From an uncultured Caulobacterales bacterium (lineage in GTDB: Bacteria > Pseudomonadota > Alphaproteobacteria > Caulobacterales > Caulobacteraceae): 64,000 bases of DNA. Positions 27,384 to 43,188 of the stretch are shown here, piece after piece. Position numbers and translations under genes: made by a program. The notes under the pieces are model-generated. The model ran no database searches. It saw nothing but the letters and a program-made list of their open reading frames with translations, and was not told where the DNA came from. Every line of letters begins with the position of its first letter. The stretch's first letter is position 1. The stretch lies in contig CAIUMD010000025.1 in assembly GCA_903900155.1 (NCBI GenBank), positions 22,458 through 86,457 of the forward strand. The letters are read 5' to 3'.

Positions 27384-27520
27384 CCTTCCCCCTCCCCCAA
27401 GCCGGCGCTCAAGTAGAGTGAATCATGCCAAGTCCCGCGCCGCTACGGACTTCTTCAACAGCCTGCTAGACGACAGAATCGCTAGTCAGACTCGACCCCC
27501 ATGCCCGCCCTTCCCGGTCC

Positions 27521-27616
27521 TGGCCGATCGGACCGTTGGCGCAGAACGGTGCGAGCGTGGCGGCGGGGCGCTTCATAACCGGGGCGATGATCCCGATCGA
27601 CGGCGGCGCGACCTGT
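27521..27616 (+). pseudogene. Possible 3' remnant of a short-chain dehydrogenase gene
   Basis: The frame reads ...LAQNGASVAAGRFITGAMIPIDGGATC, resembling the typical SDR C-terminus (..ASxITGxxIxVDGG..). No N-terminal part is present, and it abuts the IS element. Confidence 0.35.
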
Positions 27617-27750
27617 CTCGACACGCGGAAACTGCGCGGTCTTGGCGGCGTCCTAAGGACCGTGCGGCGGAAAAGGTCGTGCCGCTGCGAGCAAGTGCTG
27701 GTGAGTATCCCTGCGTAACCCTACCGCTACACATAAAAAGGGAGGGGAAG

Positions 27751-30809: not shown

Positions 30810-30832
30810 GTACGGTGGCGGATGCGAACAAC

Positions 30833-30861
30833 AAAAAAGAGCACCCGCCGGCGAGGGCGGG
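30833..30861 (-). terminator. Rho-independent terminator of the Fe-ADH gene
   Basis: Minus strand reads cccgcc-ctcgcc-ggcggg then tgctctttttt. It lies 33 nt after the stop at 30894. Confidence 0.6.
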
Positions 30862-30893
30862 CGCTGGGAGCGGGACGTTGGGACCCGGCGCGG

Positions 30894-32057: not shown

Positions 32058-32309
32058 GCACGCCTTCCTGTTGTCTGTTTGGAAAAGGAGTAGGACCGGC
32101 CAGGAGCGGGGACTTGCTCATAGAGGCAGACCGACTTGCACCGGGCTGGGCCAACGCCTTGAAAAACCATCGGTGTCGCCGCGCGAAAAGATTGGCGCCG
32201 CTGAGGGCAAGGCCGGGCTCGCAAAGCGGTCTAAGAGGAGCCGCTGTTCTCTCGCGAGGACGCTGCAGGCATGATACGCAGCGTAGCGCGATCTCTTGAG
32301 GAGGCCCGA

Positions 32310-33038
32310 GTGGCTCGCCGATCTTCTGTCCGGCAAGGTGACGACGCGGCGCCCGAAGGCGACGTGCTGGATCGGGCCGAGATGGGGCAAGGGCGCATCA
32401 AGCGGGCGCCGGGCTATGTCGAGGAGGTCTTCGAGGTCATCCGCGCCGACATCATGTCGCTGGCCATCCCGCCGGACACGCGGATCTCGATCGACAGCCT
32501 GGCCCGCCGACTTGGAGTCTCCCAGACGCCGATCCGCGAGGCGCTCAGCATGCTGGAAGCCATCGGCCTGGTCACCAAGCGCCACTTCGTCGGCTATTGC
32601 AGCGCGCCGCAGCTGAACCGCCGCCAGCTGGACCAGCTCTACGAGGCGCGCCTGCTGATCGAGCCCTTCGCCGCCCGTCGCGCCGCCGAGCAGATGGACG
32701 ACCAGGCGATGGCCGAACTGGTCACCCTGGCCGACGCCATGACGCCGGGCGAGTCGCGCCAGTCCTACGACAAGTTCGCCGACCAGGATTCGGAGCTGCA
32801 CGACCTGATCGCGACCGGCAGCGGCAATCCGATCATCCGCGAGACTTTGTCGCGGCTGCATTCGCACCTGCACATCTTCCGCCTGCGCTTCCACAGCGAG
32901 GTGACGACCGAGGCGGTCAACGAGCACGCGGACCTGATCGCGGCCTTGACGGCTCGCGATCCCGACGCGGCCGAAAAGGCGATGCGCGAGCACATCCAGC
33001 GCTCCTACGCCCGGGTGGTGCCGTTCGCGGACGAATAG
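32310..33038 (+). CDS. GntR family (FadR/FCD subfamily) transcriptional regulator
   Basis: GTG at 32310, 5 nt after GAGGAGG. The ATGs at 32271 and 32382 are alternatives. wHTH SIDSLARRLGVSQTPIREAL plus a C-terminal FCD-like helical domain. Confidence 0.85.
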   Translation: MARRSSVRQGDDAAPEGDVLDRAEMGQGRIKRAPGYVEEVFEVIRADIMSLAIPPDTRISIDSLARRLGVSQTPIREALSMLEAIGLVTKRHFVGYCSAPQLNRRQLDQLYEARLLIEPFAARRAAEQMDDQAMAELVTLADAMTPGESRQSYDKFADQDSELHDLIATGSGNPIIRETLSRLHSHLHIFRLRFHSEVTTEAVNEHADLIAALTARDPDAAEKAMREHIQRSYARVVPFADE

Positions 33039-33174
33039 GTCCCGAGCCGCCCAAATTCCAATGGATTAGCACGCGCTCTGGCGGGCCCTGCGGCTCGCCA
33101 GAGCGCGTGCGCACCTGCCTGTAGCGGCACAAAAAACGCCTCAAGGCGCCAACACCAAAATACCGCTTTTCATA

Positions 33175-33195
33175 TTTCCTATATGATATAGGAAA
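33175..33195. promoter_or_regulatory. Perfect 10-1-10 AT-rich palindrome (candidate operator) upstream of the AraC-family gene
   Basis: tttcctatat-g-atataggaaa read directly. It lies 42 bp upstream of the ATG at 33237, in a locally AT-rich stretch. Confidence 0.5.
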
Positions 33196-33236
33196 GTGGT
33201 CAGGGAGGGCACACTCCCGGCTAGGGGAGGCGCTGG

Positions 33237-34229
33237 ATGCACGTCTTCAACACCAACGATCTGACGGGGCGCAGCGCGCCAGGCGGCTGGGCGGGGCTTT
33301 TCGCCAGCCAGATCGAGGCCATGGATTTCAGGCCGGTCAAGCCTGACGCCTTCATGGCCCAGCTGGCGGGCAGCGACCTGGGGCCGCTGCACATCGCGCG
33401 GCTGATCTGTGGTCGCGCAACGGTCGAGCGCGGCGCCACGCAAATCGCCCACAAGGGCGTCTCGACCTACCTGTTGATGCTGCAGGTACGCGGCGAGGCC
33501 GAGGTCAGCCATTACGGTAACACCCCTACCCTGGCGGAGGGCGATTTCGTCCTCTGCGACAGCGGCGCGCCGCTGAAGATCCGTTTCTCTGGCGATGTCG
33601 AGACCCTGATCCTTAAGGTCGCGGCCTCGACCCTGCGAGACTACCTGCCTTCGCCCGAAGGGTTCTGCGGACGCGCGCTGCGGGCCGGCGAAGGATTGAC
33701 CGCCGCCGCCGCCGCCATGGCGCTGAACCTGTTCGGCCGCCTGGAGGCGGGTCTGTCGCTGCATTACCAGGACCGCGTCGCGCGCCAGCTGCTGGACATC
33801 GTCGCCACCGCCTACGCCCTGGCCTTCGACACCTCTAACGCCCGCTCGTCGGTGGTCAGCGGCCGCTGCGCCGCGGTGAAGCTCTATATCGAGCAGCACC
33901 TGCGCGACCCCGAGTTGACGCCCTGCGGGGTGGCGGCCGGCACGAAGCTTTCGACGCGCTATCTGCGGATGATCTTCGCCAGCGAGAACGAGACGGTGTC
34001 GGCCTACATCCTGCGCCGGCGGCTGGAGCAATGCGCCCGCCAGATCGCCGATCCGGCCTGGCGAGGCCATTCGATGACCGAGATCGCCTTTGGCTGGGGC
34101 TTCAACAGCGCCCCGCACTTCACCCGCACCTTCCGCGACCGCTTCGGCCTCCCGCCGCGCGAGTATCGGCGGCTGAAGCTGGAGGAAGAGGGCGGCGCCT
34201 TCGGCGCGCGGAGGCGTCGCGCGGCCTGA
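33237..34229 (+). CDS. AraC family transcriptional regulator
   Basis: 330 aa. C-terminal double HTH ...LSTRYLRMIF... / IAFGWGFNSAPHFTRTFRDRFGLPPREYR. GGGGAGG SD. Confidence 0.85.
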   Translation: MHVFNTNDLTGRSAPGGWAGLFASQIEAMDFRPVKPDAFMAQLAGSDLGPLHIARLICGRATVERGATQIAHKGVSTYLLMLQVRGEAEVSHYGNTPTLAEGDFVLCDSGAPLKIRFSGDVETLILKVAASTLRDYLPSPEGFCGRALRAGEGLTAAAAAMALNLFGRLEAGLSLHYQDRVARQLLDIVATAYALAFDTSNARSSVVSGRCAAVKLYIEQHLRDPELTPCGVAAGTKLSTRYLRMIFASENETVSAYILRRRLEQCARQIADPAWRGHSMTEIAFGWGFNSAPHFTRTFRDRFGLPPREYRRLKLEEEGGAFGARRRRAA

Positions 34230-35725
34230 TGCAACGGACAGACATGGGGTTGAGCTTGACCACGATGGAAACCCGCCGGGCGGCTCTTGCGCGACCGGAA
34301 CTGCTCCGTTCGCAGGCCTATTATGCGGGCGCATGGCGCAGCGCCGAAAGCGGCGAGACGGTCGCGGTGATCGATCCGTTCTCCGGCGAGACCCTGGCCG
34401 ACGTGGCTTCGATGGACGAGCAGGAGATCCGGGCCGCCATCGCCGCGGCGGAGACGGCGTTCGTCACCTGGTCCCGGACCCTGAACCGCGATCGCGGCCT
34501 GCTGCTACGTCGCTGGCTGGAACTGATCGAGCGCGACAAGGAGGACCTGGCCCGCCTGATCACCCTGGAGAACGGCAAGCCCCTGAAAGAGGCCCGGGCC
34601 GAGGTCGCCTACGGCTCCAGCTTCATCGAGGTCTATGCCGACATGGCGGCGGGCGTCCTGGGCGAGATTCTCCCGCCCAACGCCCCCGGCCGCCGGCTGA
34701 TGGCCGAGCGCGAGCCGGTCGGGGTGTGCGCGGCGATCACGCCGTGGAACTTCCCGATGGCCATGCTGACGCGCAAGATCGCGCCGGCCCTGGCGGCGGG
34801 CTGCACGATGGTCTGCAAGCCGGCCAGCGAGACGCCGCTGACCGCTCTGGCCCTGGCGACCCTGGCCGAGGAGGCGGGGATCCCGCCGGGCGTGCTCAGC
34901 GTGCTGGTCAGCGCCCCGGCCCTGTTCGGCGACATCGTCACCAGTTCGAGCGTGGTGCGGAAGATCACCTTCACCGGCTCCACGCCGGTGGGGGCCAAGC
35001 TGATGGCGGCCTCGGCCCCGACCATCAAACGCCTGTCGCTGGAGCTGGGCGGCAACGCGCCGCTGCTGGTCTTCGACGACGCCGACCTCGACGCGGCCGT
35101 CGAGACGGCCATGGTCGCCAAGTTCCGCAATGGCGGCCAGAGCTGCATCGCCGCCAACCGGATCTACGTCCAGCGCGGGATCTACGACGCCTTCCTGTCG
35201 GCCTTTCAGGCACGGATCGCGGCGATGACGGTCGGCGACGGTCTCGACCCGGCCACCGACATCGGGCCGCTGATCAGCGCCCGCGCGGTCGAGAAGGTCG
35301 AACGCCATCTTGATGAAGCGGTGGCCGGCGGCGCGCGCCTCGTCACGGGCGGCAAGGCCCAGGGCGGTCTGCTCTCGCCGCCGACCCTGGTCGCCGATGT
35401 CGCCAGCGACGCCCTGCTGACCCGCGAGGAGACCTTTGGTCCGCTGGCCGGAGTAATCCCGTTTCAGACCTACGACCAGGCCATCGCCCAGGCCAACGAC
35501 ACTCCGTTCGGCCTGGCGGCCTATGTCTGCTCGACCCGGCCCGAGACCATCGCCCGGGCCGGGCGCGATCTGGAGACCGGCATGGTCGGCATCAACACCG
35601 GCCTGATCTCGACGGCTGCCGCGCCGTTCGGCGGGGTCAAGTCGTCGGGGATCGGCCGTGAGGGCTCGCACCACGGCCTCTCGGAGTATCTGAACTACAA
35701 GTATCTGTGCCAGGCTGGCCTCTAG
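34229..35725 (+). CDS. NAD(P)+-dependent aldehyde dehydrogenase (succinate-semialdehyde dehydrogenase-like)
   Basis: LELGGNAP (Glu) and FRNGGQSCIAANR (Cys) catalytic motifs. The ATG at 34229 overlaps the AraC stop; ATGs at 34244 and 34265 are alternatives. The upstream part of the ORF-track entry is rejected. Confidence 0.88.
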   Translation: MQRTDMGLSLTTMETRRAALARPELLRSQAYYAGAWRSAESGETVAVIDPFSGETLADVASMDEQEIRAAIAAAETAFVTWSRTLNRDRGLLLRRWLELIERDKEDLARLITLENGKPLKEARAEVAYGSSFIEVYADMAAGVLGEILPPNAPGRRLMAEREPVGVCAAITPWNFPMAMLTRKIAPALAAGCTMVCKPASETPLTALALATLAEEAGIPPGVLSVLVSAPALFGDIVTSSSVVRKITFTGSTPVGAKLMAASAPTIKRLSLELGGNAPLLVFDDADLDAAVETAMVAKFRNGGQSCIAANRIYVQRGIYDAFLSAFQARIAAMTVGDGLDPATDIGPLISARAVEKVERHLDEAVAGGARLVTGGKAQGGLLSPPTLVADVASDALLTREETFGPLAGVIPFQTYDQAIAQANDTPFGLAAYVCSTRPETIARAGRDLETGMVGINTGLISTAAAPFGGVKSSGIGREGSHHGLSEYLNYKYLCQAGL

Positions 35726-35744
35726 GGGCAGGGGAGCGTCGACG

Positions 35745-36680
35745 ATGCGTCACAGCAAGAAGATCATCATCACCTGCGCGCCGACCGGCTCGATCCACAC
35801 GCCGTCGATGTCGCCGCATCTGCCGATCACGCCGGACCAGATCGCCGACGCGGCCATCGAGGCGGCCGCGGCCGGCGCCTCGATCCTGCACCTGCATGCG
35901 CGGAATCCGGTCGACGGCCGCCCCAGCCCTTCGGCCGAGCACTTCGGGGCCTTCCTGCCGAGGATCAAGCAGGCCACCGACGCGGTGATCAACATCTCGA
36001 CCGGCGGCAGTTCGACCATGACACTGGATGCACGGCTCGAAGCGGCCTTCGCGTTCAAGCCGGAGGTCTGCTCGCTGAACATGGGCCCGCTGATCTTCGA
36101 CTTCAGCGGCGCCGGCGCGCGGGTCGAGAGCTGGCAGCATCCGTGGGAACGCGAGTACGTCGAAACTTCGCGTGGCCGGATCATGTACAATGACAACAGC
36201 TATATCGAGCGCATCATGCGCGAGATCGGCCAGGGTCTGGGCACGCGCTTCGAGTTCGAGTGCTACGACATCGGTCACCTCTACACCCTGTCGCACTTCG
36301 CCGAGCGAGAGCTGATCAAGCCGCCGTTCCTGATCCAGGGCGTGTTCGGCATCCTGGGCGGCATCGGGCCGGACGTGCGCAACCTGGCCCACATGGTCAC
36401 GGTGGCCGACAGCCTGTTCGGTGACGACTACGTGTTCTCCGCCTTCGCCGCCGGCCGCCACCAGATGCCGTTCTGCACCCAGAGCGCGCTGCTGGGCGGC
36501 AACGTCCGGGTCGGTCTGGAGGACAGCCTCTATATCGGCCGCGGCGAGCTGGCCAAGTCCAATGCCGAGCAGGTCACCAAGATCCGCACGATCATCGAGG
36601 CCCTGGGCCTGGATGTCGCCAAGCCCGACGAGGCCCGCCAGATGCTGGACCTCAAGGGCGGCGACGCGGTCGGCTTCTAG
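35745..36680 (+). CDS. BKACE family enzyme (3-keto-5-aminohexanoate cleavage enzyme-like, DUF849)
   Basis: 311 aa. KIIITCAPTGS...TP.QIA..A...AGA.ILHLHARN is the family N-terminal signature. Confidence 0.85.
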   Translation: MRHSKKIIITCAPTGSIHTPSMSPHLPITPDQIADAAIEAAAAGASILHLHARNPVDGRPSPSAEHFGAFLPRIKQATDAVINISTGGSSTMTLDARLEAAFAFKPEVCSLNMGPLIFDFSGAGARVESWQHPWEREYVETSRGRIMYNDNSYIERIMREIGQGLGTRFEFECYDIGHLYTLSHFAERELIKPPFLIQGVFGILGGIGPDVRNLAHMVTVADSLFGDDYVFSAFAAGRHQMPFCTQSALLGGNVRVGLEDSLYIGRGELAKSNAEQVTKIRTIIEALGLDVAKPDEARQMLDLKGGDAVGF

Positions 36681-36695
36681 GAAGGAAACCAAGAC

Positions 36696-37433
36696 ATGAC
36701 GGACAAGGGCGTCTTCCTGGTGACGGGCGGCAGCCGCGGGATCGGCGAGGCGATCGCCCGCTCGGCGGCGGCGGAGGGCTATTTCGTGCTGCTGACCTAT
36801 GTCGGCCAGGCCGACCTGGCGCGGGGCGTTGTCGAGGCGATCCAGACCGCGGGCGGCCGGGCCGACGCCGTGCAGGCCGACACCGGCGTCCCGGCCGACG
36901 TGGCCCGGATGTTCGAGGCGGCCGACCAGCACGGACAACTCTCGGCCCTGGTCTACAACGGCGGCATCACCGGCGGCGTCGGCCTGCTCGCCGACCAGAC
37001 CGACGAGACCTTGGCCCAGGTCATCGCGGTGAACCTGACTGGCGCCCTGATCAGCTGCCGCGAGGCGGTCAAGCGGATGTCGACGCGGTTGGGCGGGCGG
37101 GGCGGTTCGATCGTCCTGCTCTCGTCGCGCGCCGCGACCCTGGGCTCGCCAAACCAGCACCTGTGGTACGCGGCCTCGAAGGGCGGGGTCGATAGTCTCA
37201 ATCTGGGTCTGGCCCGCGAGGTGGCTGGCGAGGGGATCCGGGTCAACTGCGTCTCGCCTGGCCCGATCGCCACCGAGATCCACGCCCCCGGCCGCCTGGA
37301 GGCGATCCGGGCCTCCCTGCCGATGAAGCGCGAGGGCACGCCGGAAGAAGTGGCGGCGGCCGTGATGTTCCTGGTGTCGGATGCGGCCTCGTACGTCGCC
37401 GCCGCCAATATCGAAGTCGCTGGCGCGCGCTGA
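36696..37433 (+). CDS. Short-chain dehydrogenase/reductase
   Basis: 245 aa. VTGGSRGIGEA cofactor motif, catalytic YAASKGG, C-terminal ASYV. Confidence 0.88.
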   Translation: MTDKGVFLVTGGSRGIGEAIARSAAAEGYFVLLTYVGQADLARGVVEAIQTAGGRADAVQADTGVPADVARMFEAADQHGQLSALVYNGGITGGVGLLADQTDETLAQVIAVNLTGALISCREAVKRMSTRLGGRGGSIVLLSSRAATLGSPNQHLWYAASKGGVDSLNLGLAREVAGEGIRVNCVSPGPIATEIHAPGRLEAIRASLPMKREGTPEEVAAAVMFLVSDAASYVAAANIEVAGAR

Positions 37434-37434
37434 A

Positions 37435-38271
37435 ATGGCGGTGGAAGCGCCCATCGTCGACTGCCACGCGCATGTCTTCACGCGGGACCTGCCGCTGATC
37501 GCCGACGCCTGGAACGCGCCGGCCTACGACTACACCCCCCAGGACTATCTGGCCGCGCTGGACCGCCAGGGCATCCATTTCGGCGTCCTGTCAGGTCTGA
37601 GCATTTCGGGGACCTACAACGAGTACACGATCGCGGCCGCCAGGCTGAGCCCGCGCCTGCGCGCCACGGCCATCGTCGCGCCGAGCGCCGACATCCACAC
37701 GCTGCGCCAGATGCGCGACGACGGGGTGGTCGGGATCCGCTTCCAGCTGGTCCGCAAGGCCGTGCTGCCGGACTTTACCGACGAGGCCCACCGCCTGCTG
37801 CTGCGTCGCGTGCGCGATCTGGACTGGCATGTCCATGTGGCGATCGAGGGCGAGCGGATGCAGCCGACCCTGGCGGCGCTGGAGGCCTCCGGCGTCAAGC
37901 TGGTGCTGGACCATTTCGCCCATCCCGAACCCGACAAGGGCGTCGCCTGTCCGGGCTTCCAGTCGGCCATCGACGCCGTGCAGCGCGGCAAGGCCTGGAT
38001 CAAGCTGGCGGCCGGCTTCCGCCTGGGCGGCCCCGACACCTGGCGAGACCCCGACCTGCCGCGCGCCGAGGCCATCGCGAACGCCGCCGCCGCCGAGCTG
38101 ATGGCCCGCGTCGGGCCCGAGCGTCTGCTGTGGGGCAGCGACGCGCCGTTCGTCGGCTACGAGGGCTGCATGACCTACGACCGCGCCCTGGCGCAGCTTC
38201 AGGCCTGGGCGCCCGACCCGGCGACGCGGCGGGCGCTGTCGGACACGGCGCTGCGGTTCTACTTCGCCTGA
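37435..38271 (+). CDS. Amidohydrolase_2 family protein (LigI / lactonase / decarboxylase-type metal hydrolase)
   Basis: ATG at 37435, 2 nt after the SDR stop. IVDCHAHVF His pair, ...LVLDHFAHP..., ...LLWGSDAPF. Confidence 0.8.
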   Translation: MAVEAPIVDCHAHVFTRDLPLIADAWNAPAYDYTPQDYLAALDRQGIHFGVLSGLSISGTYNEYTIAAARLSPRLRATAIVAPSADIHTLRQMRDDGVVGIRFQLVRKAVLPDFTDEAHRLLLRRVRDLDWHVHVAIEGERMQPTLAALEASGVKLVLDHFAHPEPDKGVACPGFQSAIDAVQRGKAWIKLAAGFRLGGPDTWRDPDLPRAEAIANAAAAELMARVGPERLLWGSDAPFVGYEGCMTYDRALAQLQAWAPDPATRRALSDTALRFYFA

Positions 38272-38395
38272 GGCGGCAAATTTCGGCGCCCGTCGGGACA
38301 AGTCCCCGGACGCTCGCGCGATACGCTGGATCGGATACGGTCCTGACCAACAAGAGACGCGGGACCTCCCGCGCGGAGCATAGGATGGAACGCCC

Positions 38396-39724
38396 ATGAT
38401 GGCCTGGTACCGCGAGGCGGACCGCAAGACCCGTCGCGTCTTCTGGACATGCGGCGCCGGCTGGGCGATGGACAGCGCCGACGGCCTGGTCTTCCAGTAC
38501 ATGATCCCGGTCCTGGTCGCCGCCTTCGGCATGACCCTGACCGAGGCCAGCTACATCGCCTCGGCCAACTACATCGCCGCCGCCCTGGGCGGCTGGCTGG
38601 GCGGCTGGCTCAGCGACCGGTTCGGCCGGGCCCGCATCCTGCAGCTGACCATCCTGTGGTTCTCGTTCTTCTCGTTCGTCTCGGGCTTCGCCCAGAACTA
38701 CGAGCAGCTGTTCGCCGCGCGGATTCTGCAGGGGATCGGCTTCGGGGCCGAGTGGGCGGTCGGGGCCGTGCTGCTGGGTGAGATGATCGCGCCCAAGCAT
38801 CGCGGCAAGGCGCTGGGCGTCGTCCACAGCGGGGCCGCGATCGGCTCGGGGATCGCGGCCCTGCTGGCCGGCCCGTTCGCCGCCCTGTTCCCGGCCGACA
38901 TCGGCTGGCGGGCGGTGTTCTGGATCGGCCTCTTGCCGGCGCTGCTGGTGTTCTTCGTGCGCCGGGGCTCGGACGATCCCGAGATCTACCGCGCCGCCCA
39001 GCAGCGCGCCGCCGAAACCGGCCGCAGGCCGATGATCGCCGACATCTTCGGCAAGCGCATCCTGCGCACCACCGTCCTGGCCTCGCTGCTGTCGCTGGGT
39101 ACGCAAGGCGCGGCCTTCGCCATCAGCGCCTACCTGACCAGCTTCCTGACCCTGGAGCGCCACATGAGCGTCTCCTTGGCCGGGACCTGCGTGATGATCA
39201 ACAGCGCCGGCGGCTTCTTCGGCTTCCTGGTCAACGCCTACATCTCCGACCGCATCGGACGGCGCGGTGCGTTCCGCCTGTTCGGCGCCGGCTTCATCCT
39301 GTCGGCGGCGATCTACCTGTTCGCTCCGGTCGGCGACTCCGCCGTCTTCCTGATCCCGGCCGGCTTCGTCTACGGCTTCTTCCAGTTCGGCATCTACGCC
39401 TCGTTCGGCCCGTACTTCACCGAGCTCTTCCCGACCGAGGTGCGCGCGACGGGCCAGGCCTTCGCCTACAACCTGGGCCGCGGCGGCAGCGCGCTGCTGA
39501 TCACCGGCGTGGCCCTCCTGGCCAAGACCCTGCCGCTGAGCGTGGCCATGGCGGCGCTGGCGATCCTGGCCATGACCGGCTCGTTCCTGACCACCCTGCT
39601 GCTGCCCGAGACGGTCGGCCGCGAACTGCACAGCCTGGGCGACGATCCCGCCGCCGAGACGGCGGGCAAGCAACAGCGCCCCGTCGAGCAAGACGCCGTC
39701 GGCGCGGCCAATACGGTCGGCTGA
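38396..39724 (+). CDS. MFS transporter
   Basis: 442 aa with about 12 hydrophobic segments. The LSDRFGRAR loop 2-3 motif is typical of MFS. Confidence 0.88.
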   Translation: MMAWYREADRKTRRVFWTCGAGWAMDSADGLVFQYMIPVLVAAFGMTLTEASYIASANYIAAALGGWLGGWLSDRFGRARILQLTILWFSFFSFVSGFAQNYEQLFAARILQGIGFGAEWAVGAVLLGEMIAPKHRGKALGVVHSGAAIGSGIAALLAGPFAALFPADIGWRAVFWIGLLPALLVFFVRRGSDDPEIYRAAQQRAAETGRRPMIADIFGKRILRTTVLASLLSLGTQGAAFAISAYLTSFLTLERHMSVSLAGTCVMINSAGGFFGFLVNAYISDRIGRRGAFRLFGAGFILSAAIYLFAPVGDSAVFLIPAGFVYGFFQFGIYASFGPYFTELFPTEVRATGQAFAYNLGRGGSALLITGVALLAKTLPLSVAMAALAILAMTGSFLTTLLLPETVGRELHSLGDDPAAETAGKQQRPVEQDAVGAANTVG

Positions 39725-39746
39725 GACCTTTTCGAGGACCCGATAG

Positions 39747-40193
39747 ATGTACAATCCCAAGCTTGCCGAACTGACTTTCGAGCTGCAGCAGCAGCTGGCC
39801 GACTACTGGCACGAAATCGACACCAACGGCGGCCGTGAGGCCCATGGCTATTATACCGACGACGCCGTTTTCCATGGCCAGAAGGCCTCGTACGAGGGCA
39901 AGGCCAAGATCCAGGCGTTCTACGACTGGCGCATCGCCCAGGGGCCGCGCCTGGCCGTGCACAGCTTCACCAATTTCCGCGCCTGGTTCACCGGCGAGGA
40001 TACGGCCGAGAGCAGCTGCTACCTGTTCCTGTACGCCGCAAACGGCGAGAAGATCCTGCGCAGCGAGCCGCCGATCTCGATCTCGATGGCCACCGACAAG
40101 CACCAGCGCGTCGGCGACCGCTGGCTGTGCACTTACCGCCGGTTCGAGCACTGGTTCGAGGGCGACACGCCCATCACCAATCCCAAGCTCTGA
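39747..40193 (+). CDS. SnoaL-like / NTF2-superfamily protein
   Basis: 148 aa. Its size and pattern (..YWHEID......YYTDDAVF.......G...I..FY...) resemble SnoaL-like or ring-hydroxylating-dioxygenase-beta-like folds. The assignment is tentative. Confidence 0.55.
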   Translation: MYNPKLAELTFELQQQLADYWHEIDTNGGREAHGYYTDDAVFHGQKASYEGKAKIQAFYDWRIAQGPRLAVHSFTNFRAWFTGEDTAESSCYLFLYAANGEKILRSEPPISISMATDKHQRVGDRWLCTYRRFEHWFEGDTPITNPKL

Positions 40194-40220
40194 TCCGCGC
40201 TCCAGAAGAGAGGTCGACCG

Positions 40221-41147
40221 ATGTCCACGATGTATGCCGACGCGGATCCCCGCTCGAAGCTGGCGACCGCCACGGCCGCCGCCACCCCGACCGTCACCGA
40301 CGGCTTCGGCGCCTCGTCCTACGCCCTGTTCGGCGAGAGCCCGCCGCAGATCGACGACGAGACCGGCCGCACCTGGCTGACCCGCGGGGCCAACTTCATC
40401 GTCGCTTACACCCTGGCCAAGCCGGGCGCGACGCTGGAGCGCAAGGGCCAGATCGACGAGTACGTCCTGCTGATCGAGTCCCCGGAACCATGGGCGCTGA
40501 TCAAGGCCGGCGGTGAGACAGTCGAGATGACCGGCGAGCACATCGCCTTCATTCCGCCGGGCGACAGCCGCATCGAGCTGCCCGACGGCGGCGAGATCGT
40601 GCGCCTGTTCACCACCGCCTCAGAGGACCTCGTGGCCCTCTGCTCGAACGTCGAGACCTACGCCGGCGGCGCGCCGCACATCCCGCCGCTGGTCCGCTGG
40701 CCCGATCCGCCGGGCGGCTTCAAGGTCCGCAAATATGCGCTGAACGTGCCCGCCCAGGACGGGCGTTTCGGCCGGATCTGGCGCTGCACGACCTTCATGA
40801 TCAACGTGTTCGAGCCGGCCGCGCCGCGCGATCCCAACAAGCTGTCGCCGCACTTCCACGACGACTTCGAGCAGGGGTCGTTGGCCATGGGCGGCAGCTT
40901 CGTCCACCACCTGCGCTGGCCCTGGACGGCCAAGCTGTCGGACTGGCGCGACGACGAGCACGTGACCTGCCCGGCGCCGTCGATCGCGGTGATCCCGGCC
41001 AGGGCGATCCACACCTCGGCCTCGGTCGCGCCGGGCATGGGCAACCTGCTGGTCGACATCTTCTCGCCGCCGCGCAAGGACTTCTCGGACATGGCCGGAT
41101 GGGTGCTGAACGCCGACGACTATCCGGCTCCCTCGGCGGAGGCGTGA
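40221..41147 (+). CDS. Hypothetical 308-aa protein (possibly a two-cupin fold)
   Basis: ORF with an AGAGAGG SD-like sequence, translationally coupled to the next gene (ATGA-type overlap). Two beta-rich halves, with His-containing segment SPHFHDDFEQGS. No confident family. Confidence 0.5.
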   Translation: MSTMYADADPRSKLATATAAATPTVTDGFGASSYALFGESPPQIDDETGRTWLTRGANFIVAYTLAKPGATLERKGQIDEYVLLIESPEPWALIKAGGETVEMTGEHIAFIPPGDSRIELPDGGEIVRLFTTASEDLVALCSNVETYAGGAPHIPPLVRWPDPPGGFKVRKYALNVPAQDGRFGRIWRCTTFMINVFEPAAPRDPNKLSPHFHDDFEQGSLAMGGSFVHHLRWPWTAKLSDWRDDEHVTCPAPSIAVIPARAIHTSASVAPGMGNLLVDIFSPPRKDFSDMAGWVLNADDYPAPSAEA

Positions 41148-41932
41148 TGCACCCTCACAGTGAAATCCAGCGTCGGTTCCGCCAGCGTCTCGAGGGCCGT
41201 GAACGGCTGCTGGGCACGTTCCTGAAGACCGCCACCGGCCACGCGACCGAGATCCTCGGCGGGGCGGGCTTCGACTTCGTGGTGGTCGACGCCGAGCACG
41301 CGCCGTTCTCGACGAGCGACATCGACCTCATGATGCTGGCCGCTCGCGCGGCCGGTATCCCCAGCGTGGTCCGTGTCGCGTCCAGCGACGAGCACCACCT
41401 GCTGCAGGCCCTGGACTGCGGCGCGGCCGGCGTGCTGACGCCGCACGTGACCAGCGCCGCCAAGCTGCGCGAGATCGTCTCGGCCTGCCGCTATCGCGGC
41501 GGCGCGCGAGGCTTTTCCAACTCGCCACGGGCGGGGGAATACGGGGCGCGTGGTTTCGCCGACCACATGGCCAATGCCGACGCCTCGACCGCGATCATCG
41601 CCATGATCGAGGACCCGGAAGCCATCGACCAGCTGGACGCGATCTTCACGGTCGAGGGACTGACGGCCGCCTTCATCGGCCGCGGCGACCTCTCGGCGCG
41701 GCTGGGCGCGCCCAATGTCAGTGATCCGATGATCGCCGAGGTGGTGGCGCGGATCACCGAAGCCGCCCGCAGGCACGGCGTGCCGCTGATCGCCCACGTC
41801 GGCTCAGGCGCCGATCCCGACGTGGCGCGGTTGGGGGAGGCGGGCGTGACCGGCTTCCTGGTCTCGTCCGATCAGGGCCTGCTGCGCCAGGGCGCCTTGG
41901 CCGCCCGCAAGGCGTTCGACAGTCAAGGGTGA
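41147..41932 (+). CDS. HpcH/HpaI family aldolase (2-keto-3-deoxy-acid aldolase type)
   Basis: The ATG at 41147 overlaps the preceding stop. ...GFDFVVVDAEHAPF... and ...MIEDPEA... motifs. Confidence 0.85.
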   Translation: MHPHSEIQRRFRQRLEGRERLLGTFLKTATGHATEILGGAGFDFVVVDAEHAPFSTSDIDLMMLAARAAGIPSVVRVASSDEHHLLQALDCGAAGVLTPHVTSAAKLREIVSACRYRGGARGFSNSPRAGEYGARGFADHMANADASTAIIAMIEDPEAIDQLDAIFTVEGLTAAFIGRGDLSARLGAPNVSDPMIAEVVARITEAARRHGVPLIAHVGSGADPDVARLGEAGVTGFLVSSDQGLLRQGALAARKAFDSQG

Positions 41933-41933
41933 C

Positions 41934-42848
41934 ATGGACAAGCTTTTCGACACCCACGCCCACCTGATCGCCGACGACTGGGAGCGCTACAGGGCGCGGC
42001 CGTTCACGCCCGATCTGCCGGTCCCCGACCGCCCGAACTACAGCGTCACGGCCGACGCCCTGATCGGCATGATGGACACGCATCACGTCGAACGCGCCTG
42101 CCTCGTCCAGCGCGGCCACGTGTACGGCTACGACAACAGCTACATCCTGGACGCCGCGCACGAATATCCTGGGCGGCTGCATCCCGTCGTCATCCTGGAT
42201 GCGCAGGACCCCCAGACCCCGGCGCTTTATCGCGAGATGGTCCGCGACCACCACTGCCGGGGCTTCCGGATGGCCAACGCCCGGCCCTGGCTGCTGGACA
42301 CCGCCTGGATGAGCTCGCCGGCGGCCATGGAGGTCTGGAAAGCCTGCGCCGATCTCGGCACGCCGATGACCATGATCATGTTCATGAACCAGTTGCCGTA
42401 TCTGCTGCCGCTGGTGAAGATCATCGCCAGGCAGTTCCCGGACCTGCCGATCCTCCTCGATCACGGCGCCATGCCGTTCGGCATGACCCAGTACGAGGTC
42501 AAGCTGGCGGAAGAGGCGGGCGAGACGGTGGTCATGCCACCGGCCCCGGACTTTGGCGTCGACCGCACGATCAAGATCTTCGAGGACGTCCCGAACGTCC
42601 ATTTCAAGATCACCGAGATCAATTTCGAGCGCTGCGTCGCCGCCGACGTGCGCGCCGCGCGGATCGTTCGCCGCATGGTCGACAGCTTCGGCCCAGATCG
42701 CTTGATATGGGGCTCCGACATCGGCCAGAGCATGCGATGGACCTATCGAGAGAAGACGCGAATGGCCCGAGAAGCGACCGACTTCCTGAGTCTGGACGAA
42801 CGTCGCAAAGTCCTACACGACAACGCTGCACGTCTTTACGATCTCTAG
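41934..42848 (+). CDS. Amidohydrolase_2 family protein (second copy in the cluster)
   Basis: 304 aa. LFDTHAHLI His pair, ...ILLDHGAMP..., ...LIWGSDIGQ. Starts 2 nt after the aldolase stop. Confidence 0.8.
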   Translation: MDKLFDTHAHLIADDWERYRARPFTPDLPVPDRPNYSVTADALIGMMDTHHVERACLVQRGHVYGYDNSYILDAAHEYPGRLHPVVILDAQDPQTPALYREMVRDHHCRGFRMANARPWLLDTAWMSSPAAMEVWKACADLGTPMTMIMFMNQLPYLLPLVKIIARQFPDLPILLDHGAMPFGMTQYEVKLAEEAGETVVMPPAPDFGVDRTIKIFEDVPNVHFKITEINFERCVAADVRAARIVRRMVDSFGPDRLIWGSDIGQSMRWTYREKTRMAREATDFLSLDERRKVLHDNAARLYDL

Positions 42849-43188
42849 GCCCCCATCGTCATTGGACTCCGAATTGCGCTAAGTGTTCAGCCCCGAAGTC
42901 AAGTGGACAGGGTCGGATGTGAAGCGGTTTGGTTGTCCGCGCCGGCCTTGATCCTACTGTGGCGATACCAAGCCGCTGGCCACTCCTGTGTTGGGAATTG
43001 CCGATCATCCTCGAGCGGATCAGCGACGATGCAGAAGGCCATGCGTGTGCGGAGAAGCCGCGCATCGGCCTGTCTCGGCGGGGGCCGGCCGACCGCCTTC
43101 TCAGGGGCCTGGGCCGGGGGCGGACGCTGGTCGACGTCAATCGATAGCCTTCAGCGACGAGGCCCGTGAAAATAAATCCGCGGCTCTG

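What the first reader, a model, noticed from the sequence alone, without database searches (positions are those of the whole stretch)
32310..42848. Eleven-gene catabolic island built around a BKACE enzyme, with two regulators and two uncharacterised proteins
Seen: the same-strand run is GntR, AraC, ALDH, BKACE, SDR, amidohydrolase_2, MFS, SnoaL-like, an unknown 308-aa protein, an HpcH/HpaI aldolase and a second amidohydrolase_2. Several junctions are translationally coupled: 34229, 37433/37435, 41147 and 41932/41934. Established: BKACE enzymes condense a beta-keto acid with acetyl-CoA, as in 3-keto-5-aminohexanoate or dehydrocarnitine cleavage. Amidohydrolase_2 members include LigI, sugar-acid lactonases and non-oxidative decarboxylases. 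HpcH aldolases split 2-keto-3-deoxy or 4-hydroxy-2-oxo acids. Inference: the SDR could generate the beta-keto acid for BKACE, while lactonase plus aldolase plus ALDH resembles a non-phosphorylative deoxy-sugar-acid or meta-cleavage-type route. No dehydratase or CoA-transferase gene is visible, so the chemistry does not map onto a known pathway.
Basis: partly seen in the sequence, partly recalled or inferred. Interest (0 to 1): 0.65.

Follow-up and report, generated by a model that had tools for sequence, protein, structure and literature searches.

The report
Uncharacterised catabolic cluster around BKACE
A real, conserved 12-13-gene degradation cluster in a Caulobacter-like genome that no paper found here describes. 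It pairs a hydrolase, hydratase-like and aldolase module (including a protein family with no name) with an enzyme that splits beta-keto acids, and its growth substrate is still unknown.

Summary
The eleven same-strand genes are real, and their family calls and tight junctions are correct. The unit is larger than reported. A divergent iron-type alcohol dehydrogenase (30894-32057, minus strand) is co-conserved with it, and so, in the closest relatives, is an upstream TonB-dependent receptor. Caulobacter sp. K31 has the identical gene order.

The BKACE passes NCBIfam's curated cut-off for "3,5-dioxohexanoate:acetyl-CoA acetone transferase" and keeps the catalytic residues of BKACE15, whose physiological role is unknown.

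The "unknown 308-aa protein" is a confidently modelled bicupin with no Pfam family. Its C-terminal barrel keeps the metal motif and the Asp/Phe/Arg catalytic trio of KdgF. Relatives sit beside an HpcH aldolase, an amidohydrolase-type hydrolase and often a BKACE in two phyla. In three actinobacterial loci they lie beside an extradiol dioxygenase, an alpha/beta hydrolase and an NTF2 protein, with no FAH-type hydratase in the operon.

My reading is as follows:
- A lactone or ring-fission-type intermediate is hydrolysed.
- The bicupin and the SnoaL protein tautomerise and hydrate it.
- The aldolase splits it into pyruvate plus a carbonyl fragment.
- The fragment is oxidised to a beta-keto acid.
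- BKACE cleaves that acid to acetoacetate plus an acyl-CoA.

The substrate is not identified. I found no published homologous cluster.

The parts
27418..30708 (+). TonB-dependent outer-membrane receptor; probable uptake component. The true start may lie downstream of 27418.
   Evidence: Plug and TonB_dep_Rec_b-barrel domains. Orthologue next to the cluster in L001 (84% identical) and L002 (66%). TonB receptors lie beside the cluster in several other loci. A + strand terminator-like hairpin follows at 30774-30804.
30894..32057 (-). Iron-containing (group III) alcohol dehydrogenase, divergent from the GntR gene.
   Evidence: Fe-ADH and ADH_Fe_C domains. Below every NCBIfam cut-off: ErcA 290 bits, lactaldehyde reductase 250 bits, 4-hydroxybutyrate dehydrogenase 217 bits. 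Co-conserved at 59-87% identity in 11 of the 14 closest BKACE loci, and in the operon in Actinobacteria. Its own minus-strand terminator-like hairpin lies at 30865-30840.
32310..33038 (+). GntR/FadR-type regulator with an FCD ligand domain
   Evidence: FCD 97 bits and GntR 52 bits. GTG start at 32310 with a GAGGAGG ribosome-binding site. Present only in the closest relatives.
33175..33195 (.). Perfect 10+1+10 palindrome TTTCCTATAT-G-ATATAGGAAA, 42 nt upstream of araC; candidate operator
   Evidence: Inverted repeat I14. Unique in the window, with 0 matches expected by chance. Conserved at the same place in K31, UC70_42 and the Caulobacter MAG.
33237..34229 (+). AraC-family regulator, FeaR-like
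   Evidence: AraC_binding_2 and HTH_18. FeaR model 141 bits against a cut-off of 199. Conserved at 43-80% identity in most close relatives, usually directly upstream of SnoaL-ALDH-BKACE.
34229..35725 (+). NAD(P)-dependent aldehyde dehydrogenase, closest to succinate-semialdehyde dehydrogenases. The start overlaps the araC stop.
   Evidence: Aldedh 543 bits. SSADH subfamily 592 bits against a cut-off of 646. Always directly upstream of the BKACE gene in window-type clusters.
35745..36680 (+). Beta-keto acid cleavage enzyme (Zn-dependent)
   Evidence: PF05853 329 bits. NF053538 '3,5-dioxohexanoate:acetyl-CoA acetone transferase' 484 bits against a cut-off of 430, aligned end to end. 332 bits to BKACE15 (8RIO). 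The LHLHAR, FEFECYD (E171) and VRVGLED (R254) motifs are conserved.
36696..37433 (+). Short-chain dehydrogenase/reductase
   Evidence: adh_short_C2 171 bits. Orthologues at 58-60% identity in SYK-6, L089 and, fused to a triple SnoaL_4 protein, in Brevundimonas.
37435..38271 (+). Amidohydrolase_2 'a', LigI/COG3618-type probable lactonase. One base separates it from the SDR stop codon.
   Evidence: PF04909 100 bits. PDB 2ffi 'putative 2-pyrone-4,6-dicarboxylate hydrolase' E 7e-39; LigI (4d8l) E 4e-13. 4-sulfomuconolactone hydrolase model 83 bits against a cut-off of 500.
38396..39724 (+). MFS transporter
   Evidence: MFS_1 169 bits. Best NCBIfam hit is the aromatic acid/H+ symporter family, 179 bits against a cut-off of 419. 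Orthologues at 57-84% identity in most relatives.
39747..40193 (+). SnoaL_4/NTF2-like protein, probable hydratase or isomerase
   Evidence: SnoaL_4 32 bits. Invariant W21, D25, R62, R68, H72, N76, D117, W126 and R131 across 17 homologues, including those of the actinobacterial dioxygenase loci. Sits directly before ALDH-BKACE in most close relatives and is a neighbour of the bicupin in other clusters.
40221..41147 (+).
   Evidence: No Pfam or NCBIfam family. AlphaFold model with alignment A1: pLDDT 91, pTM 0.88, two beta-barrels. Only generic bicupin matches, TM about 0.5. The profile's best PDB hit is KdgF (E 0.007), with H211, H213, Q218, H264, D279, F281 and R285 invariant.
41147..41932 (+). 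HpcH/HpaI-type class II pyruvate aldolase. The start overlaps the bicupin stop codon.
   Evidence: PF03328 95 bits. GarL, HpaI and RhmA models 103-129 bits, all far below their cut-offs. PDB GarL, YfaU and HpaI E 1e-24 to 2e-30. An HpcH gene lies within 8 kb of the bicupin in 54 of 80 loci.
41934..42848 (+). Amidohydrolase_2 'b', a distant paralogue of 'a'; probable lactonase or C-C hydrolase
   Evidence: PF04909 105 bits. Its profile hits the COG3618 lactonases 2ffi, 4i6k and 4dlf and, weakly, LigY. Only motif-level similarity to 'a'. In 9 of the 14 closest loci only one of 'a' and 'b' appears near the BKACE gene; four loci carry both. Synteny with Caulobacter sp. UC70_42 ends right after this gene.

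Best explanation
This is a substrate-inducible catabolic cluster for a still unidentified, probably plant- or lignin-derived compound. It is built from two conserved enzyme modules plus uptake and regulation.

Module 1 consists of Amidohydro_2 a and/or b, the SnoaL protein, the bicupin and the HpcH aldolase. It works like the lower part of an aromatic ring-fission pathway:
- A hydrolase opens a lactone, a pyrone or a ring-fission-type intermediate to a 2-hydroxy-dienoate or 2-oxo-enoate.
- The KdgF-like bicupin ketonises it, using a metal plus Arg to hold the 2-oxo/enol carboxylate and Asp as the base.
- The SnoaL protein adds water. This split of roles between the two proteins is my assignment and is not tested.
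- The aldolase splits the resulting 4-hydroxy-2-oxo acid into pyruvate plus a carbonyl fragment.

Module 2 consists of the Fe-ADH, the ALDH, the SDR and the BKACE:
- It brings that fragment, or an alcohol or aldehyde form of the substrate, to a beta-keto acid.
- BKACE cleaves this acid with acetyl-CoA into acetoacetate plus an acyl-CoA, so no CoA-transferase or thiolase is needed.

Uptake runs through the TonB-dependent receptor and the MFS permease. Control lies with the AraC-type regulator and the GntR/FCD regulator, probably acting at the conserved palindrome before araC.

Shown here: the genes, their families, conserved catalytic residues and co-conservation.
Inferred: the order of steps, the hydratase/tautomerase roles and all chemistry of the substrate.
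For: (1) Family assignments and intact catalytic motifs.

(2) The BKACE meets the NF053538 cut-off, 484 bits against 430. BKACE15 of the same type takes small neutral beta-keto acids, and its gene context was already read as aromatic degradation.

(3) A seven-enzyme core recurs in two phyla: amidohydrolase-type hydrolase, BKACE, bicupin, HpcH, SDR, Fe-ADH and ALDH. It occurs in Alphaproteobacteria and as one operon in Actinobacteria.

(4) Among 80 genomes with a bicupin relative, the following lie within 8 kb: HpcH in 54, an Amidohydro_2 or DUF6282 hydrolase in 61, and BKACE in 34.

(5) In a Microvirga plasmid, HpcH, the bicupin and DUF6282 are followed by a 3-oxoacid CoA-transferase instead of a BKACE. 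This fits a beta-keto acid as the product of module 1.

(6) In Rhodococcus opacus, Nocardia aurea and a Nocardioides strain, the bicupin and HpcH sit with an extradiol dioxygenase, an alpha/beta hydrolase and an NTF2 protein. These loci lack a canonical FAH-type hydratase and a DmpG-type aldolase in the operon.

(7) The bicupin's invariant D279/F281/R285 and its H-x-H...Q...H motif align with the catalytic Asp/Phe/Arg and the metal motif of KdgF. KdgF opens an enol-ether carboxylate to a 2-oxo acid.

(8) The SnoaL protein keeps invariant Asp25/His72/Arg131.

(9) Amidohydro_2 'a' resembles LigI-type pyrone/lactone hydrolases. The profile of 'b' touches COG3618 lactonases and LigY.
Against: - No ring-cleavage dioxygenase lies in the cluster or anywhere in the 64 kb. 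The entering compound must therefore already be non-aromatic, or ring cleavage is encoded elsewhere, or the bicupin is itself the oxygenase.
- The KdgF match is weak (E 0.007), and Foldseek gives only generic bicupin hits.
- The dioxygenase context rests on three actinobacterial loci at 41-47% identity. One of them (L182) has an FAA_hydrolase gene about 9 kb away on the other strand.
- One Sphingomonas cluster lacks HpcH within 10 kb.
- HpcH lies directly beside the bicupin in only 19 of 80 loci.
- The roles of the Fe-ADH and of the two paralogous amidohydrolases are not pinned down.
- The BKACE subfamily name comes from an in-vitro screen, not from physiology.
Confidence: 0.45

Rival explanations
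1. Sugar-acid route (deoxy-sugar or uronate-type). The SDR and Amidohydro_2 'a' act as sugar 1-dehydrogenase and lactonase. The KdgF-like bicupin opens or isomerises an unsaturated or keto sugar acid. HpcH cleaves a 2-keto-3-deoxy acid. The ALDH oxidises the aldehyde. The BKACE acts as in the oxidative deoxyribose pathway.
For: - The SDR and lactonase genes are one base apart.
- COG3618 contains L-fucono-1,5-lactonase, and the profile of 'b' hits 4dlf.
- The aldolase is closest to GarL and to the 2-keto-3-deoxy-sugar aldolase YfaU.
- KdgF is a uronate enzyme.
- A BKACE is used in deoxyribonate catabolism (abstract listed).
- The Brevundimonas cluster lies near GH2 and GH53 genes. BNR_2 proteins occur near the cluster in about 7 loci.
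Against: - No sugar-acid dehydratase, kinase or sugar-type binding protein is present.
- The regulator is FeaR-like.
- The transporters in relatives are TRAP, TTT, LIV-type ABC or MFS of the aromatic-acid symporter type.
- Relatives of the bicupin-HpcH pair sit beside extradiol dioxygenase genes.
- The fuconolactonase, GarL and RhmA models are all far below their cut-offs.
Confidence: 0.18
2. Aerobic phloroglucinol or triacetate(-lactone) route. The SDR reduces phloroglucinol (or a lactonase opens triacetic acid lactone). An amidohydrolase opens the ring to 3-hydroxy-5-oxohexanoate. A dehydrogenase makes 3,5-dioxohexanoate. The BKACE acts as triacetate acetoacetate-lyase.
For: - The BKACE passes the cut-off of the 3,5-dioxohexanoate model.
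- The Clostridium pathway uses SDR, ring hydrolase, dehydrogenase and BKACE in that order.
- The actinobacterial clusters have a Cyclase (PF04199) gene about 7 kb away.
- Amidohydro_2 'a' is related to a 2-pyrone hydrolase.
Against: - The window has no cyclase-family hydrolase and no 3-hydroxyacyl-CoA-dehydrogenase-type TfD.
- This route leaves the bicupin, HpcH aldolase, SnoaL protein, ALDH and Fe-ADH without a role, although they are the most consistently co-conserved genes.
Confidence: 0.12
3. The bicupin is itself the ring-cleaving dioxygenase (gentisate or hydroquinone type). The cluster would then be a complete pathway for a hydroxylated aromatic alcohol or acid: Fe-ADH and ALDH make the aromatic acid, the bicupin opens the ring, and hydrolase, aldolase and BKACE finish the job.
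For: - A His-rich cupin metal motif is invariant.
- The structural neighbours include quercetin dioxygenases.
- No other oxygenase is in the window-type or the TRAP-type clusters.
- Flavodoxin_2-type quinone reductases accompany 11 related clusters.
- The transporters are of types used for aromatic acids (my knowledge).
Against: - The invariant Asp/Phe/Arg tail matches a non-oxidative enzyme, KdgF.
- Three actinobacterial loci already carry an extradiol dioxygenase next to the bicupin.
- Frequent coupling to the aldolase suggests consecutive steps.
Confidence: 0.15
4. This is not one pathway. Several unrelated small operons happen to lie side by side.
For: Gaps of 198 nt before araC and 124 nt before the MFS gene. 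The modules are reshuffled between genomes, and some genomes carry module 1 without a BKACE.
Against: Seven enzyme genes stay together across two phyla in different orders. The closest relatives keep all twelve genes. The conserved block ends exactly at the last gene.
Confidence: 0.05

Closest known systems
Lower protocatechuate 4,5-cleavage pathway (LigC dehydrogenase, LigI pyrone hydrolase, LigU isomerase, LigJ hydratase, LigK aldolase). The pathway itself is cited from my knowledge.
   Same: Same logic: dehydrogenase, then lactone/pyrone hydrolase, isomerase and hydratase, then a class II aldolase that gives pyruvate plus a beta-keto acid (oxaloacetate). Amidohydro_2 'a' is a relative of LigI.
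   Different: None of the proteins is an orthologue. The SDR stands for a Gfo/Idh/MocA LigC, an NTF2 protein and a bicupin for LigU and LigJ, and HpcH for the RraA-type LigK. The beta-keto acid is then handled by a BKACE. No LigAB dioxygenase is nearby.
Canonical meta-cleavage lower pathway (MhpC/BphD hydrolase, MhpD/BphH hydratase, MhpE/BphI aldolase, acylating aldehyde dehydrogenase). Cited from my knowledge.
   Same: Hydrolase, hydratase, aldolase and aldehyde oxidation. Relatives of the bicupin-HpcH pair sit in actinobacterial loci beside an extradiol dioxygenase and an alpha/beta hydrolase.
   Different: The hydratase slot is filled by a bicupin and/or an NTF2 protein instead of a FAH-fold enzyme. 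The aldolase is HpcH-type. The aldehyde dehydrogenase is not assigned to any acylating type: its best NCBIfam matches are SSADH-type models. The window has an amidohydrolase-type hydrolase and no dioxygenase.
KdgF (cupin that linearises 4,5-unsaturated uronates; PDB 5FQ0)
   Same: The C-terminal barrel shares the H-x-H...Q...H motif and the D-x-F-S-P-x-R tail, which carries the catalytic Asp, Phe and Arg. The chemistry, enol(ether) carboxylate to 2-oxo acid, is what a dienol ketonase needs.
   Different: KdgF is a single cupin of about 110 aa in pectin and alginate loci. This protein is a 308-aa bicupin with a conserved N-terminal barrel that has no invariant histidine. The match is weak (E 0.007).
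BKACE15 of Paracoccus denitrificans (PDB 8RIO/8RIP) and triacetate acetoacetate-lyase of the Clostridium phloroglucinol pathway
   Same: Same enzyme family and the same NCBIfam-named reaction type. The catalytic E171, R254 and the HxH motif are conserved. BKACE15 takes 3,5-dioxohexanoate, 3-oxohexanoate, 5-hydroxy-3-oxohexanoate, 3-oxopentanoate and malonate semialdehyde.
   Different: The physiological role of BKACE15 is unknown. The Clostridium cluster uses a cyclase-family hydrolase and a 3HCDH-type dehydrogenase, and has no bicupin, aldolase or ALDH.
Oxidative deoxyribose/deoxyribonate pathway (Price et al.; bioRxiv 10.1101/205583)
   Same: Oxidation to a keto acid followed by BKACE cleavage to an acyl-CoA (abstract listed).
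   Different: No aldolase, bicupin or NTF2 protein is part of that pathway as described in the abstract. The BKACE subfamily of that pathway was not compared here.

Membership tests
BKACE (PF05853), 3,5-dioxohexanoate-type (NCBIfam NF053538) | Full-length match above the curated cut-offs | tested here: met
   PF05853 328.6 bits against 24.8. NF053538 483.9 bits against 430, residues 1-311 on profile 1-310.
BKACE (PF05853), 3,5-dioxohexanoate-type (NCBIfam NF053538) | Catalytic Glu (E171 of BKACE15), Arg (R254) and Zn site | tested here: met
   The alignment to 8RIO conserves FEFECYD and VRVGLED. The LHLHAR His-x-His motif is also conserved; calling it the Zn ligand set rests on my knowledge.
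BKACE (PF05853), 3,5-dioxohexanoate-type (NCBIfam NF053538) | Activity on 3,5-dioxohexanoate with acetyl-CoA | not testable with these tools
   Needs an enzyme assay. The model's name derives from in-vitro screening of relatives.
Anaerobic phloroglucinol pathway (PGR, DPGC, TfD, TAL) | Cyclase-family (PF04199) dihydrophloroglucinol cyclohydrolase and 3HCDH-type dehydrogenase next to the BKACE | tested here: not met
   Neither family is in the window cluster. A Cyclase gene occurs only near the actinobacterial versions.
LigI (2-pyrone-4,6-dicarboxylate lactonase) / COG3618 lactonases | Amidohydro_2 fold with sequence similarity to LigI-type enzymes | tested here: met
   'a': 2ffi E 7e-39, LigI 4d8l E 4e-13. 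Profile of 'b': 2ffi E 2e-10, 4dlf E 7e-7.
LigI (2-pyrone-4,6-dicarboxylate lactonase) / COG3618 lactonases | Orthology to a characterised lactonase (curated equivalog score) | tested here: not met
   4-sulfomuconolactone hydrolase 83 bits against 500. L-fucono-1,5-lactonase 19-26 bits against 400.
HpcH/HpaI class II pyruvate aldolases | PF03328 domain, aldolase branch rather than citrate-lyase/CoA-ester lyase branch | tested here: met
   95 bits. Best matches are GarL, HpaI and RhmA, with RipC/Ccl only at E 7.5e-5. PDB GarL and YfaU E about 1e-30.
HpcH/HpaI class II pyruvate aldolases | Orthology to GarL, HpaI or RhmA | tested here: not met
   103-129 bits against cut-offs of 369-441.
KdgF | Single-domain cupin of about 110 aa with the metal motif and catalytic Asp/Phe/Arg | tested here: inconclusive
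   The motif and the three catalytic residues align and are invariant. However, the protein is a 308-aa bicupin, the match is E 0.007, and the gene context differs. I treat it as resemblance, not membership.
Bicupin ring-cleaving dioxygenases (gentisate 1,2-dioxygenase, quercetinase) | Bicupin fold with a His-rich metal site | tested here: met
   AlphaFold model pLDDT 91. Quercetinase and oxalate decarboxylase hits at TM about 0.45-0.55. H211, H213 and H264 are invariant.
Bicupin ring-cleaving dioxygenases (gentisate 1,2-dioxygenase, quercetinase) | Detectable sequence membership or O2-dependent activity | tested here: inconclusive
   No sequence hit to these families in PDB or Pfam. Activity cannot be tested here.
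NTF2-like (de)hydratases and lyases (LinA, scytalone dehydratase, LdpA) | SnoaL/NTF2 fold with a conserved Asp-His dyad | tested here: inconclusive
   SnoaL_4 32 bits. D25, H72 and R131 are invariant. Their equivalence to LinA Asp25/His73/Arg129 is from memory and was not aligned here. No PDB sequence hit.
Succinate-semialdehyde dehydrogenase | Score above the SSADH subfamily or equivalog cut-off | tested here: not met
   591.6 bits against 646 (TIGR01780) and 580 bits against 828 (NF008415). It is the closest family, but the protein is not an assigned member.
Canonical meta-cleavage operon | Extradiol dioxygenase and FAH-type hydratase in the cluster | tested here: not met
   Neither is found in the cluster or in the 64-kb window.

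The most novel reading that the evidence does not exclude
A widespread, undescribed lower pathway for ring-fission-type or pyrone-type intermediates. In it, a new bicupin family (no Pfam model; about 2,800-3,300 hits per search) together with an NTF2 protein replaces the FAH-fold hydratase. An HpcH aldolase replaces the DmpG- or RraA-type aldolase. The resulting beta-keto acid is fed into central metabolism by a BKACE instead of a CoA-transferase plus thiolase. This would give the 3,5-dioxohexanoate-type BKACEs, including BKACE15, their first physiological role, possibly in the catabolism of lignin-derived compounds.
Probability: 0.35. Interest if true: 0.72.

Novelty: new variant of a known kind. 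Interest (0 to 1): 0.55.

Why it matters
- If the model holds, it assigns a function to a large unnamed bicupin family, to DUF6282 and to a SnoaL_4 subfamily.
- It gives a physiological context to a BKACE subfamily now used in synthetic CO2-fixation designs, whose natural role is unknown.
- It describes an alternative way in which soil and plant-associated bacteria (Caulobacter, sphingomonads including the lignin model strain SYK-6, rhizobia, Microbacteriaceae, Nocardia) turn ring-fission-type intermediates into pyruvate, acetoacetate and an acyl-CoA.
- It is directly testable. Caulobacter sp. K31 and Sphingobium sp. SYK-6 are cultured strains that carry the cluster.

Tried and rejected
- Single-sequence AlphaFold of the unknown protein failed (pLDDT 32). 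It succeeded only with a 73-sequence alignment.
- Foldseek against the PDB gave only generic bicupins and no functional lead.
- PDB sequence search for the SnoaL protein found nothing. The DUF6282 profile also found nothing.
- Literature searches found no paper on the cluster: BKACE/dioxohexanoate (8), SYK-6 locus tags SLG_12100-12260 (15, 105), BKACE+SnoaL+cupin+aldolase (44), DUF849+HpcH and related terms (60), DUF6282/DUF8021 (79). The Collinsella aldolase-dependent phloroglucinol paper is not in the library (43, 62).
- No supplements are held for the LdpA paper (106). The SYK-6 ldp genes are SLG_12600-12710, near but not part of the SLG_12170 cluster (107).
- I rejected the idea that the Fe-ADH is a maleylacetate reductase. 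Its best models are FucO/ErcA-type alcohol dehydrogenases.
- I rejected the idea that the HpcH protein is a CoA-ester lyase acting on the BKACE product. It falls in the GarL/HpaI/RhmA branch.
- The genome scan for relatives of the Rhodococcus-type bicupin found only two loci. Two plasmid hits had no annotation.
- Rfam gave only a sub-threshold ar14 match on the terminator hairpin after the receptor gene.
- I considered kojic/comenic acid, chelidonic acid, parasorbic acid, pinoresinol-derived lactones, polyvinyl-alcohol fragments and 4-alkylcatechol 4,5-cleavage products as substrates on paper. None accounts for all the genes, and none could be tested.

Full report
**Observation.** The window is high-GC (about 0.63-0.71).
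They have the GC3 signature of real genes (0.83-0.96).
- They carry the stated domains: GntR+FCD, AraC_binding_2+HTH_18, Aldedh, BKACE, SDR, Amidohydro_2, MFS_1, SnoaL_4, a 308-aa protein without any Pfam or NCBIfam hit, HpcH_HpaI and a second Amidohydro_2.
- The junctions are as described. There are TGATG overlaps at 34229 and 41147, and one-base gaps at 37433/37435 and 41932/41934.
- The GntR gene most likely starts at the GTG at 32310, which has a GAGGAGG ribosome-binding site.
- Larger gaps lie before araC (198 nt) and before the MFS gene (124 nt).

**Extent and origin.**
- The closest relative in the genome collection is Caulobacter sp. UC70_42. Window 30229-42839 is 91.4% identical to it in DNA, and the alignment stops right after the last gene.
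- Caulobacter sp. K31 has the same twelve genes in the same order. So does an uncultured Caulobacter MAG, which also has the upstream TonB-dependent receptor.
It lies in the operon in Actinobacteria.
- The receptor gene and the Fe-ADH gene each end in a terminator-like hairpin.
- The rest of the 64 kb is housekeeping or unrelated. It holds no ring-cleavage dioxygenase.

**The BKACE.**
- It scores 483.9 bits against NCBIfam NF053538, '3,5-dioxohexanoate:acetyl-CoA acetone transferase' (cut-off 430), aligned end to end.
- It aligns over its whole length with BKACE15 of Paracoccus denitrificans (8RIO, 332 bits). The alignment keeps the HxH motif, the catalytic Glu of FEFECYD (E171) and the Arg of VRVGLED (R254).
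- BKACE15 accepts 3-oxohexanoate, 3,5-dioxohexanoate, 5-hydroxy-3-oxohexanoate, 3-oxopentanoate and malonate semialdehyde. Its physiological role is stated to be unknown, with a gene context 'suggesting aromatic degradation' (PMC11961710).
- BKACE homologues at about 60% identity occur in many other contexts. Only those at 76% identity or more carry the window-type neighbours.

**The unknown protein.**
- Thousands of homologues exist (2,793 and 3,320 hits in two searches). Nearly all are called 'hypothetical', and precomputed Pfam domains are almost always absent.
- When 73 members were scanned at E up to 1, only weak cupin-type hits appeared.
- With an alignment (A1), AlphaFold gives a confident two-barrel model (pLDDT 91, pTM 0.88). 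Foldseek finds only generic bicupins: oxalate decarboxylase, quercetinase and BacB, at TM about 0.5.
- The A1 profile's best PDB hit is KdgF (5FQ0, E 0.007). The aligned stretch covers the P-H-x-H...Q motif and the tail D-x-F-S-P-x-R.
- In KdgF the Asp, Phe and Arg of that tail are the residues proposed for catalysis (YeKdgF D100/F102/R106, BeKdgF D102/F104/R108). Mutating the Asp to Ala abolishes activity (PMC11381880).
- The corresponding D279, F281 and R285, and also H211, H213, Q218 and H264, are invariant in A1.
- KdgF converts a cyclic enol-ether carboxylate to an open-chain 2-oxo acid. This chemistry is close to the ketonisation of 2-hydroxy-dienoates.

**Comparative context.**
- I fetched 80 genome loci with a bicupin relative at 51% identity or more and labelled the neighbours.
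- Within 8 kb of the bicupin: an HpcH aldolase in 54, an Amidohydro_2 or DUF6282 hydrolase in 61, a BKACE in 34, an SDR in 34 and an ALDH in 21.
- Two architectures dominate:
  - The window type occurs in Caulobacter and Sphingomonadales. It has AraC, SnoaL-ALDH-BKACE, Fe-ADH, MFS, a TonB receptor, Amidohydro_2 and often 700-aa proteins with three SnoaL_4 domains.
  - A rhizobial and rhodobacteral type has IclR, a TRAP, TTT or LIV-type ABC transporter, and HpcH-DUF6282-BKACE-Flavodoxin_2-SDR.
- Smaller versions exist:
  - Paracoccus plasmids: TRAP, a dihydroorotate-dehydrogenase-like protein, DUF6282, HpcH and the bicupin.
  - A Microvirga plasmid: HpcH, the bicupin, DUF6282, then a 3-oxoacid CoA-transferase.
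  - An Agrobacterium plasmid: an RraA-type protein, NTF2, ALDH and the bicupin.
- Actinobacteria (Herbiconiux, Cryptosporangium) have one operon: DUF6282-BKACE-bicupin-HpcH-SDR-FeADH-ALDH. Seven enzyme types therefore travel together in two phyla.
- The most informative loci are in Rhodococcus opacus, Nocardia aurea and a Nocardioides strain. There the bicupin and HpcH lie beside a two-domain extradiol dioxygenase, an alpha/beta hydrolase and an NTF2/SnoaL_4 protein.
  - In R. opacus these are preceded by an MhpA-like hydroxylase.
  - In the other two they are preceded by GcvT-like, PurU and FolD genes. I read that set, from my knowledge, as a tetrahydrofolate-dependent O-demethylation set.
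  - No FAH-type hydratase or DmpG-type aldolase is in the operon. L182 does have an FAA_hydrolase gene about 9 kb away on the other strand.
- In these loci the bicupin, NTF2 protein and HpcH occupy the hydratase and aldolase slots of a meta-cleavage pathway.

**Other proteins.**
- The window's SnoaL protein is a weak homologue of those actinobacterial NTF2 proteins (E 2e-8 to 2e-10).
- Across 17 sequences, D25, H72 and R131 (with W21, R62, R68, N76, D117 and W126) are invariant. From memory this mirrors the Asp25/His73/Arg129 set of LinA and the Asp-His dyad of scytalone dehydratase. I did not align them here.
- Amidohydro_2 'a' is close to a putative 2-pyrone-4,6-dicarboxylate hydrolase (2ffi, E 7e-39) and related to LigI (E 4e-13).
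- The profile of 'b' hits the same lactonase group and, weakly, the C-C hydrolase LigY. The two share only motifs.
- In 9 of the 14 closest loci only one of the two appears near the BKACE gene; four loci carry both.
- The aldolase is in the GarL/HpaI/RhmA branch but far below each equivalog cut-off.
- The ALDH is nearest to succinate-semialdehyde dehydrogenases but below their cut-offs.
- The Fe-ADH is a FucO/ErcA-like group III enzyme.

**Mechanism proposed.**
1. Uptake through the TonB-dependent receptor and the MFS permease.
2. Hydrolytic opening of a lactone, pyrone or ring-fission-type intermediate by Amidohydro_2. The SDR, one base upstream of 'a', possibly makes the lactone from a hemiacetal, as LigC does for LigI (inference).
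3. Ketonisation and hydration by the bicupin and the SnoaL protein.
4. Aldol cleavage by HpcH to pyruvate plus a carbonyl fragment.
5. Oxidation of that fragment, or of an alcohol or aldehyde precursor, by the Fe-ADH, ALDH and SDR to a beta-keto acid.
6. BKACE cleavage with acetyl-CoA to acetoacetate plus an acyl-CoA.

A chemical point supports the link between steps 4 and 6 (inference from textbook chemistry). In the protocatechuate 4,5-cleavage route the aldolase yields pyruvate plus oxaloacetate. If the ring carboxyl is replaced by a group R, the same steps yield R-CO-CH2-COOH, which is exactly a BKACE substrate. The Microvirga variant with a 3-oxoacid CoA-transferase fits a beta-keto acid as the product of module 1.

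Steps 1-6 are inferred. Only gene content, residue conservation and co-occurrence are shown. The growth substrate is not identified.

**Regulation.** A perfect 10+1+10 palindrome (33175-33195) lies 42 nt before araC. It is unique in the window and conserved in the three Caulobacter relatives. It is a candidate operator; I could not assign it to either regulator.

**Rivals.**
- A sugar-acid route (0.18) is suggested by the SDR-lactonase pair, the KdgF link and the GarL/YfaU-like aldolase. It lacks a dehydratase and does not fit the extradiol-dioxygenase contexts of the bicupin-HpcH pair.
- A phloroglucinol/triacetate route (0.12) fits the BKACE name and the Clostridium precedent. It leaves five conserved genes idle and lacks the cyclase-family hydrolase.
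- The bicupin as a ring-cleaving dioxygenase (0.15) would explain the missing oxygenase. It conflicts with the KdgF-type residues and with loci that already hold an extradiol dioxygenase.
- Unrelated neighbouring operons (0.05) conflict with the cross-phylum co-conservation.

**Novelty.** None of ten full-text searches found a paper on this cluster, on the SYK-6 genes SLG_12100-12260, on DUF6282 or on the bicupin family. The library does not cover subscription journals, so absence is not proof. The pieces belong to known kinds: a catabolic cluster, a lower ring-fission logic and a BKACE. The combination and the two substitute enzymes appear undescribed, so I rate it a new variant of a known kind.

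**Verdict.** Interest is moderate to fairly high (0.55): a coherent, testable, widespread pathway with an unnamed enzyme family, but the substrate is unknown and the mechanism rests on context.

Noticed in passing
window 33175-33195: Perfect palindrome TTTCCTATAT-G-ATATAGGAAA in an AT-rich patch 42 nt before araC. It is unique in the window and conserved in Caulobacter sp. K31, UC70_42 and a Caulobacter MAG. Probably an operator; the cognate regulator is not assigned.
   Followed up: partly
window 30722-30809: Sub-threshold Rfam match to the alphaproteobacterial sRNA ar14 (33 bits against a gathering score of 58.8). It overlaps the terminator-like hairpin after the TonB receptor gene and is most likely just the terminator.
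   Followed up: no
window 42839-42860 versus L132: DNA synteny with Caulobacter sp. UC70_42 (91% identity) ends within a few bases of the stop codon of the last cluster gene. The right-hand neighbours therefore differ between the two strains.
   Followed up: partly
L085 7368-9611; L081 1-2157 and 3717-5717; L008 15304-17433: Related clusters carry proteins of about 700 aa with three tandem SnoaL_4 domains. These hit the lignin diarylpropane lyase LdpA (8ABU, E 5e-25). In Brevundimonas such a protein is fused to the orthologue of the window's SDR. The window has no such protein. Function unknown.
   Followed up: partly
L081 (Sphingobium sp. SYK-6, SLG_12170-12200 and neighbours): The lignin model strain SYK-6 has bicupin-HpcH-ALDH-BKACE followed by two DUF8021 proteins, three single SnoaL_4 proteins and a PQQ quinohaemoprotein dehydrogenase. 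This lies a few dozen genes from the ldpA/ldpB/ldpC region (SLG_12600-12710). No paper found mentions these genes.
   Followed up: partly
L181 2320-12849 and L182 5780-12838: Nocardia and Nocardioides operons join GcvT-like, PurU and FolD genes to bicupin-HpcH-extradiol dioxygenase-SnoaL_4-alpha/beta hydrolase. This looks like an undescribed pathway for a methoxylated aromatic compound.
   Followed up: partly
L086 1358-7927 and L087 2318-7947: The actinobacterial versions of the cluster face an ABC transporter with a binding protein of about 360 aa (SBP_bac_1/8), IclR regulators and a Cyclase-family (PF04199) protein. That family includes dihydrophloroglucinol cyclohydrolase.
   Followed up: no
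window 37435-38271 and 41934-42848 versus L001-L014: In 9 of the 14 closest loci only one of the two Amidohydro_2 paralogues appears near the BKACE gene. L001, L002 and, more weakly, L013 have both, as does L089. They may be isofunctional, or specific for different isomers.
   Followed up: partly
window 43244-45063: Directly downstream lie a DUF305 protein and a YVTN-type beta-propeller protein. They are not conserved with the cluster.
   Followed up: no
window 46890-60266: A second group of possible catabolic or uptake genes: an MFS transporter, an IclR regulator, two polysaccharide-deacetylase-family proteins, an aconitase-family protein, an isochorismatase-family protein, DUF3089 and another TonB-dependent receptor.
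   Followed up: no
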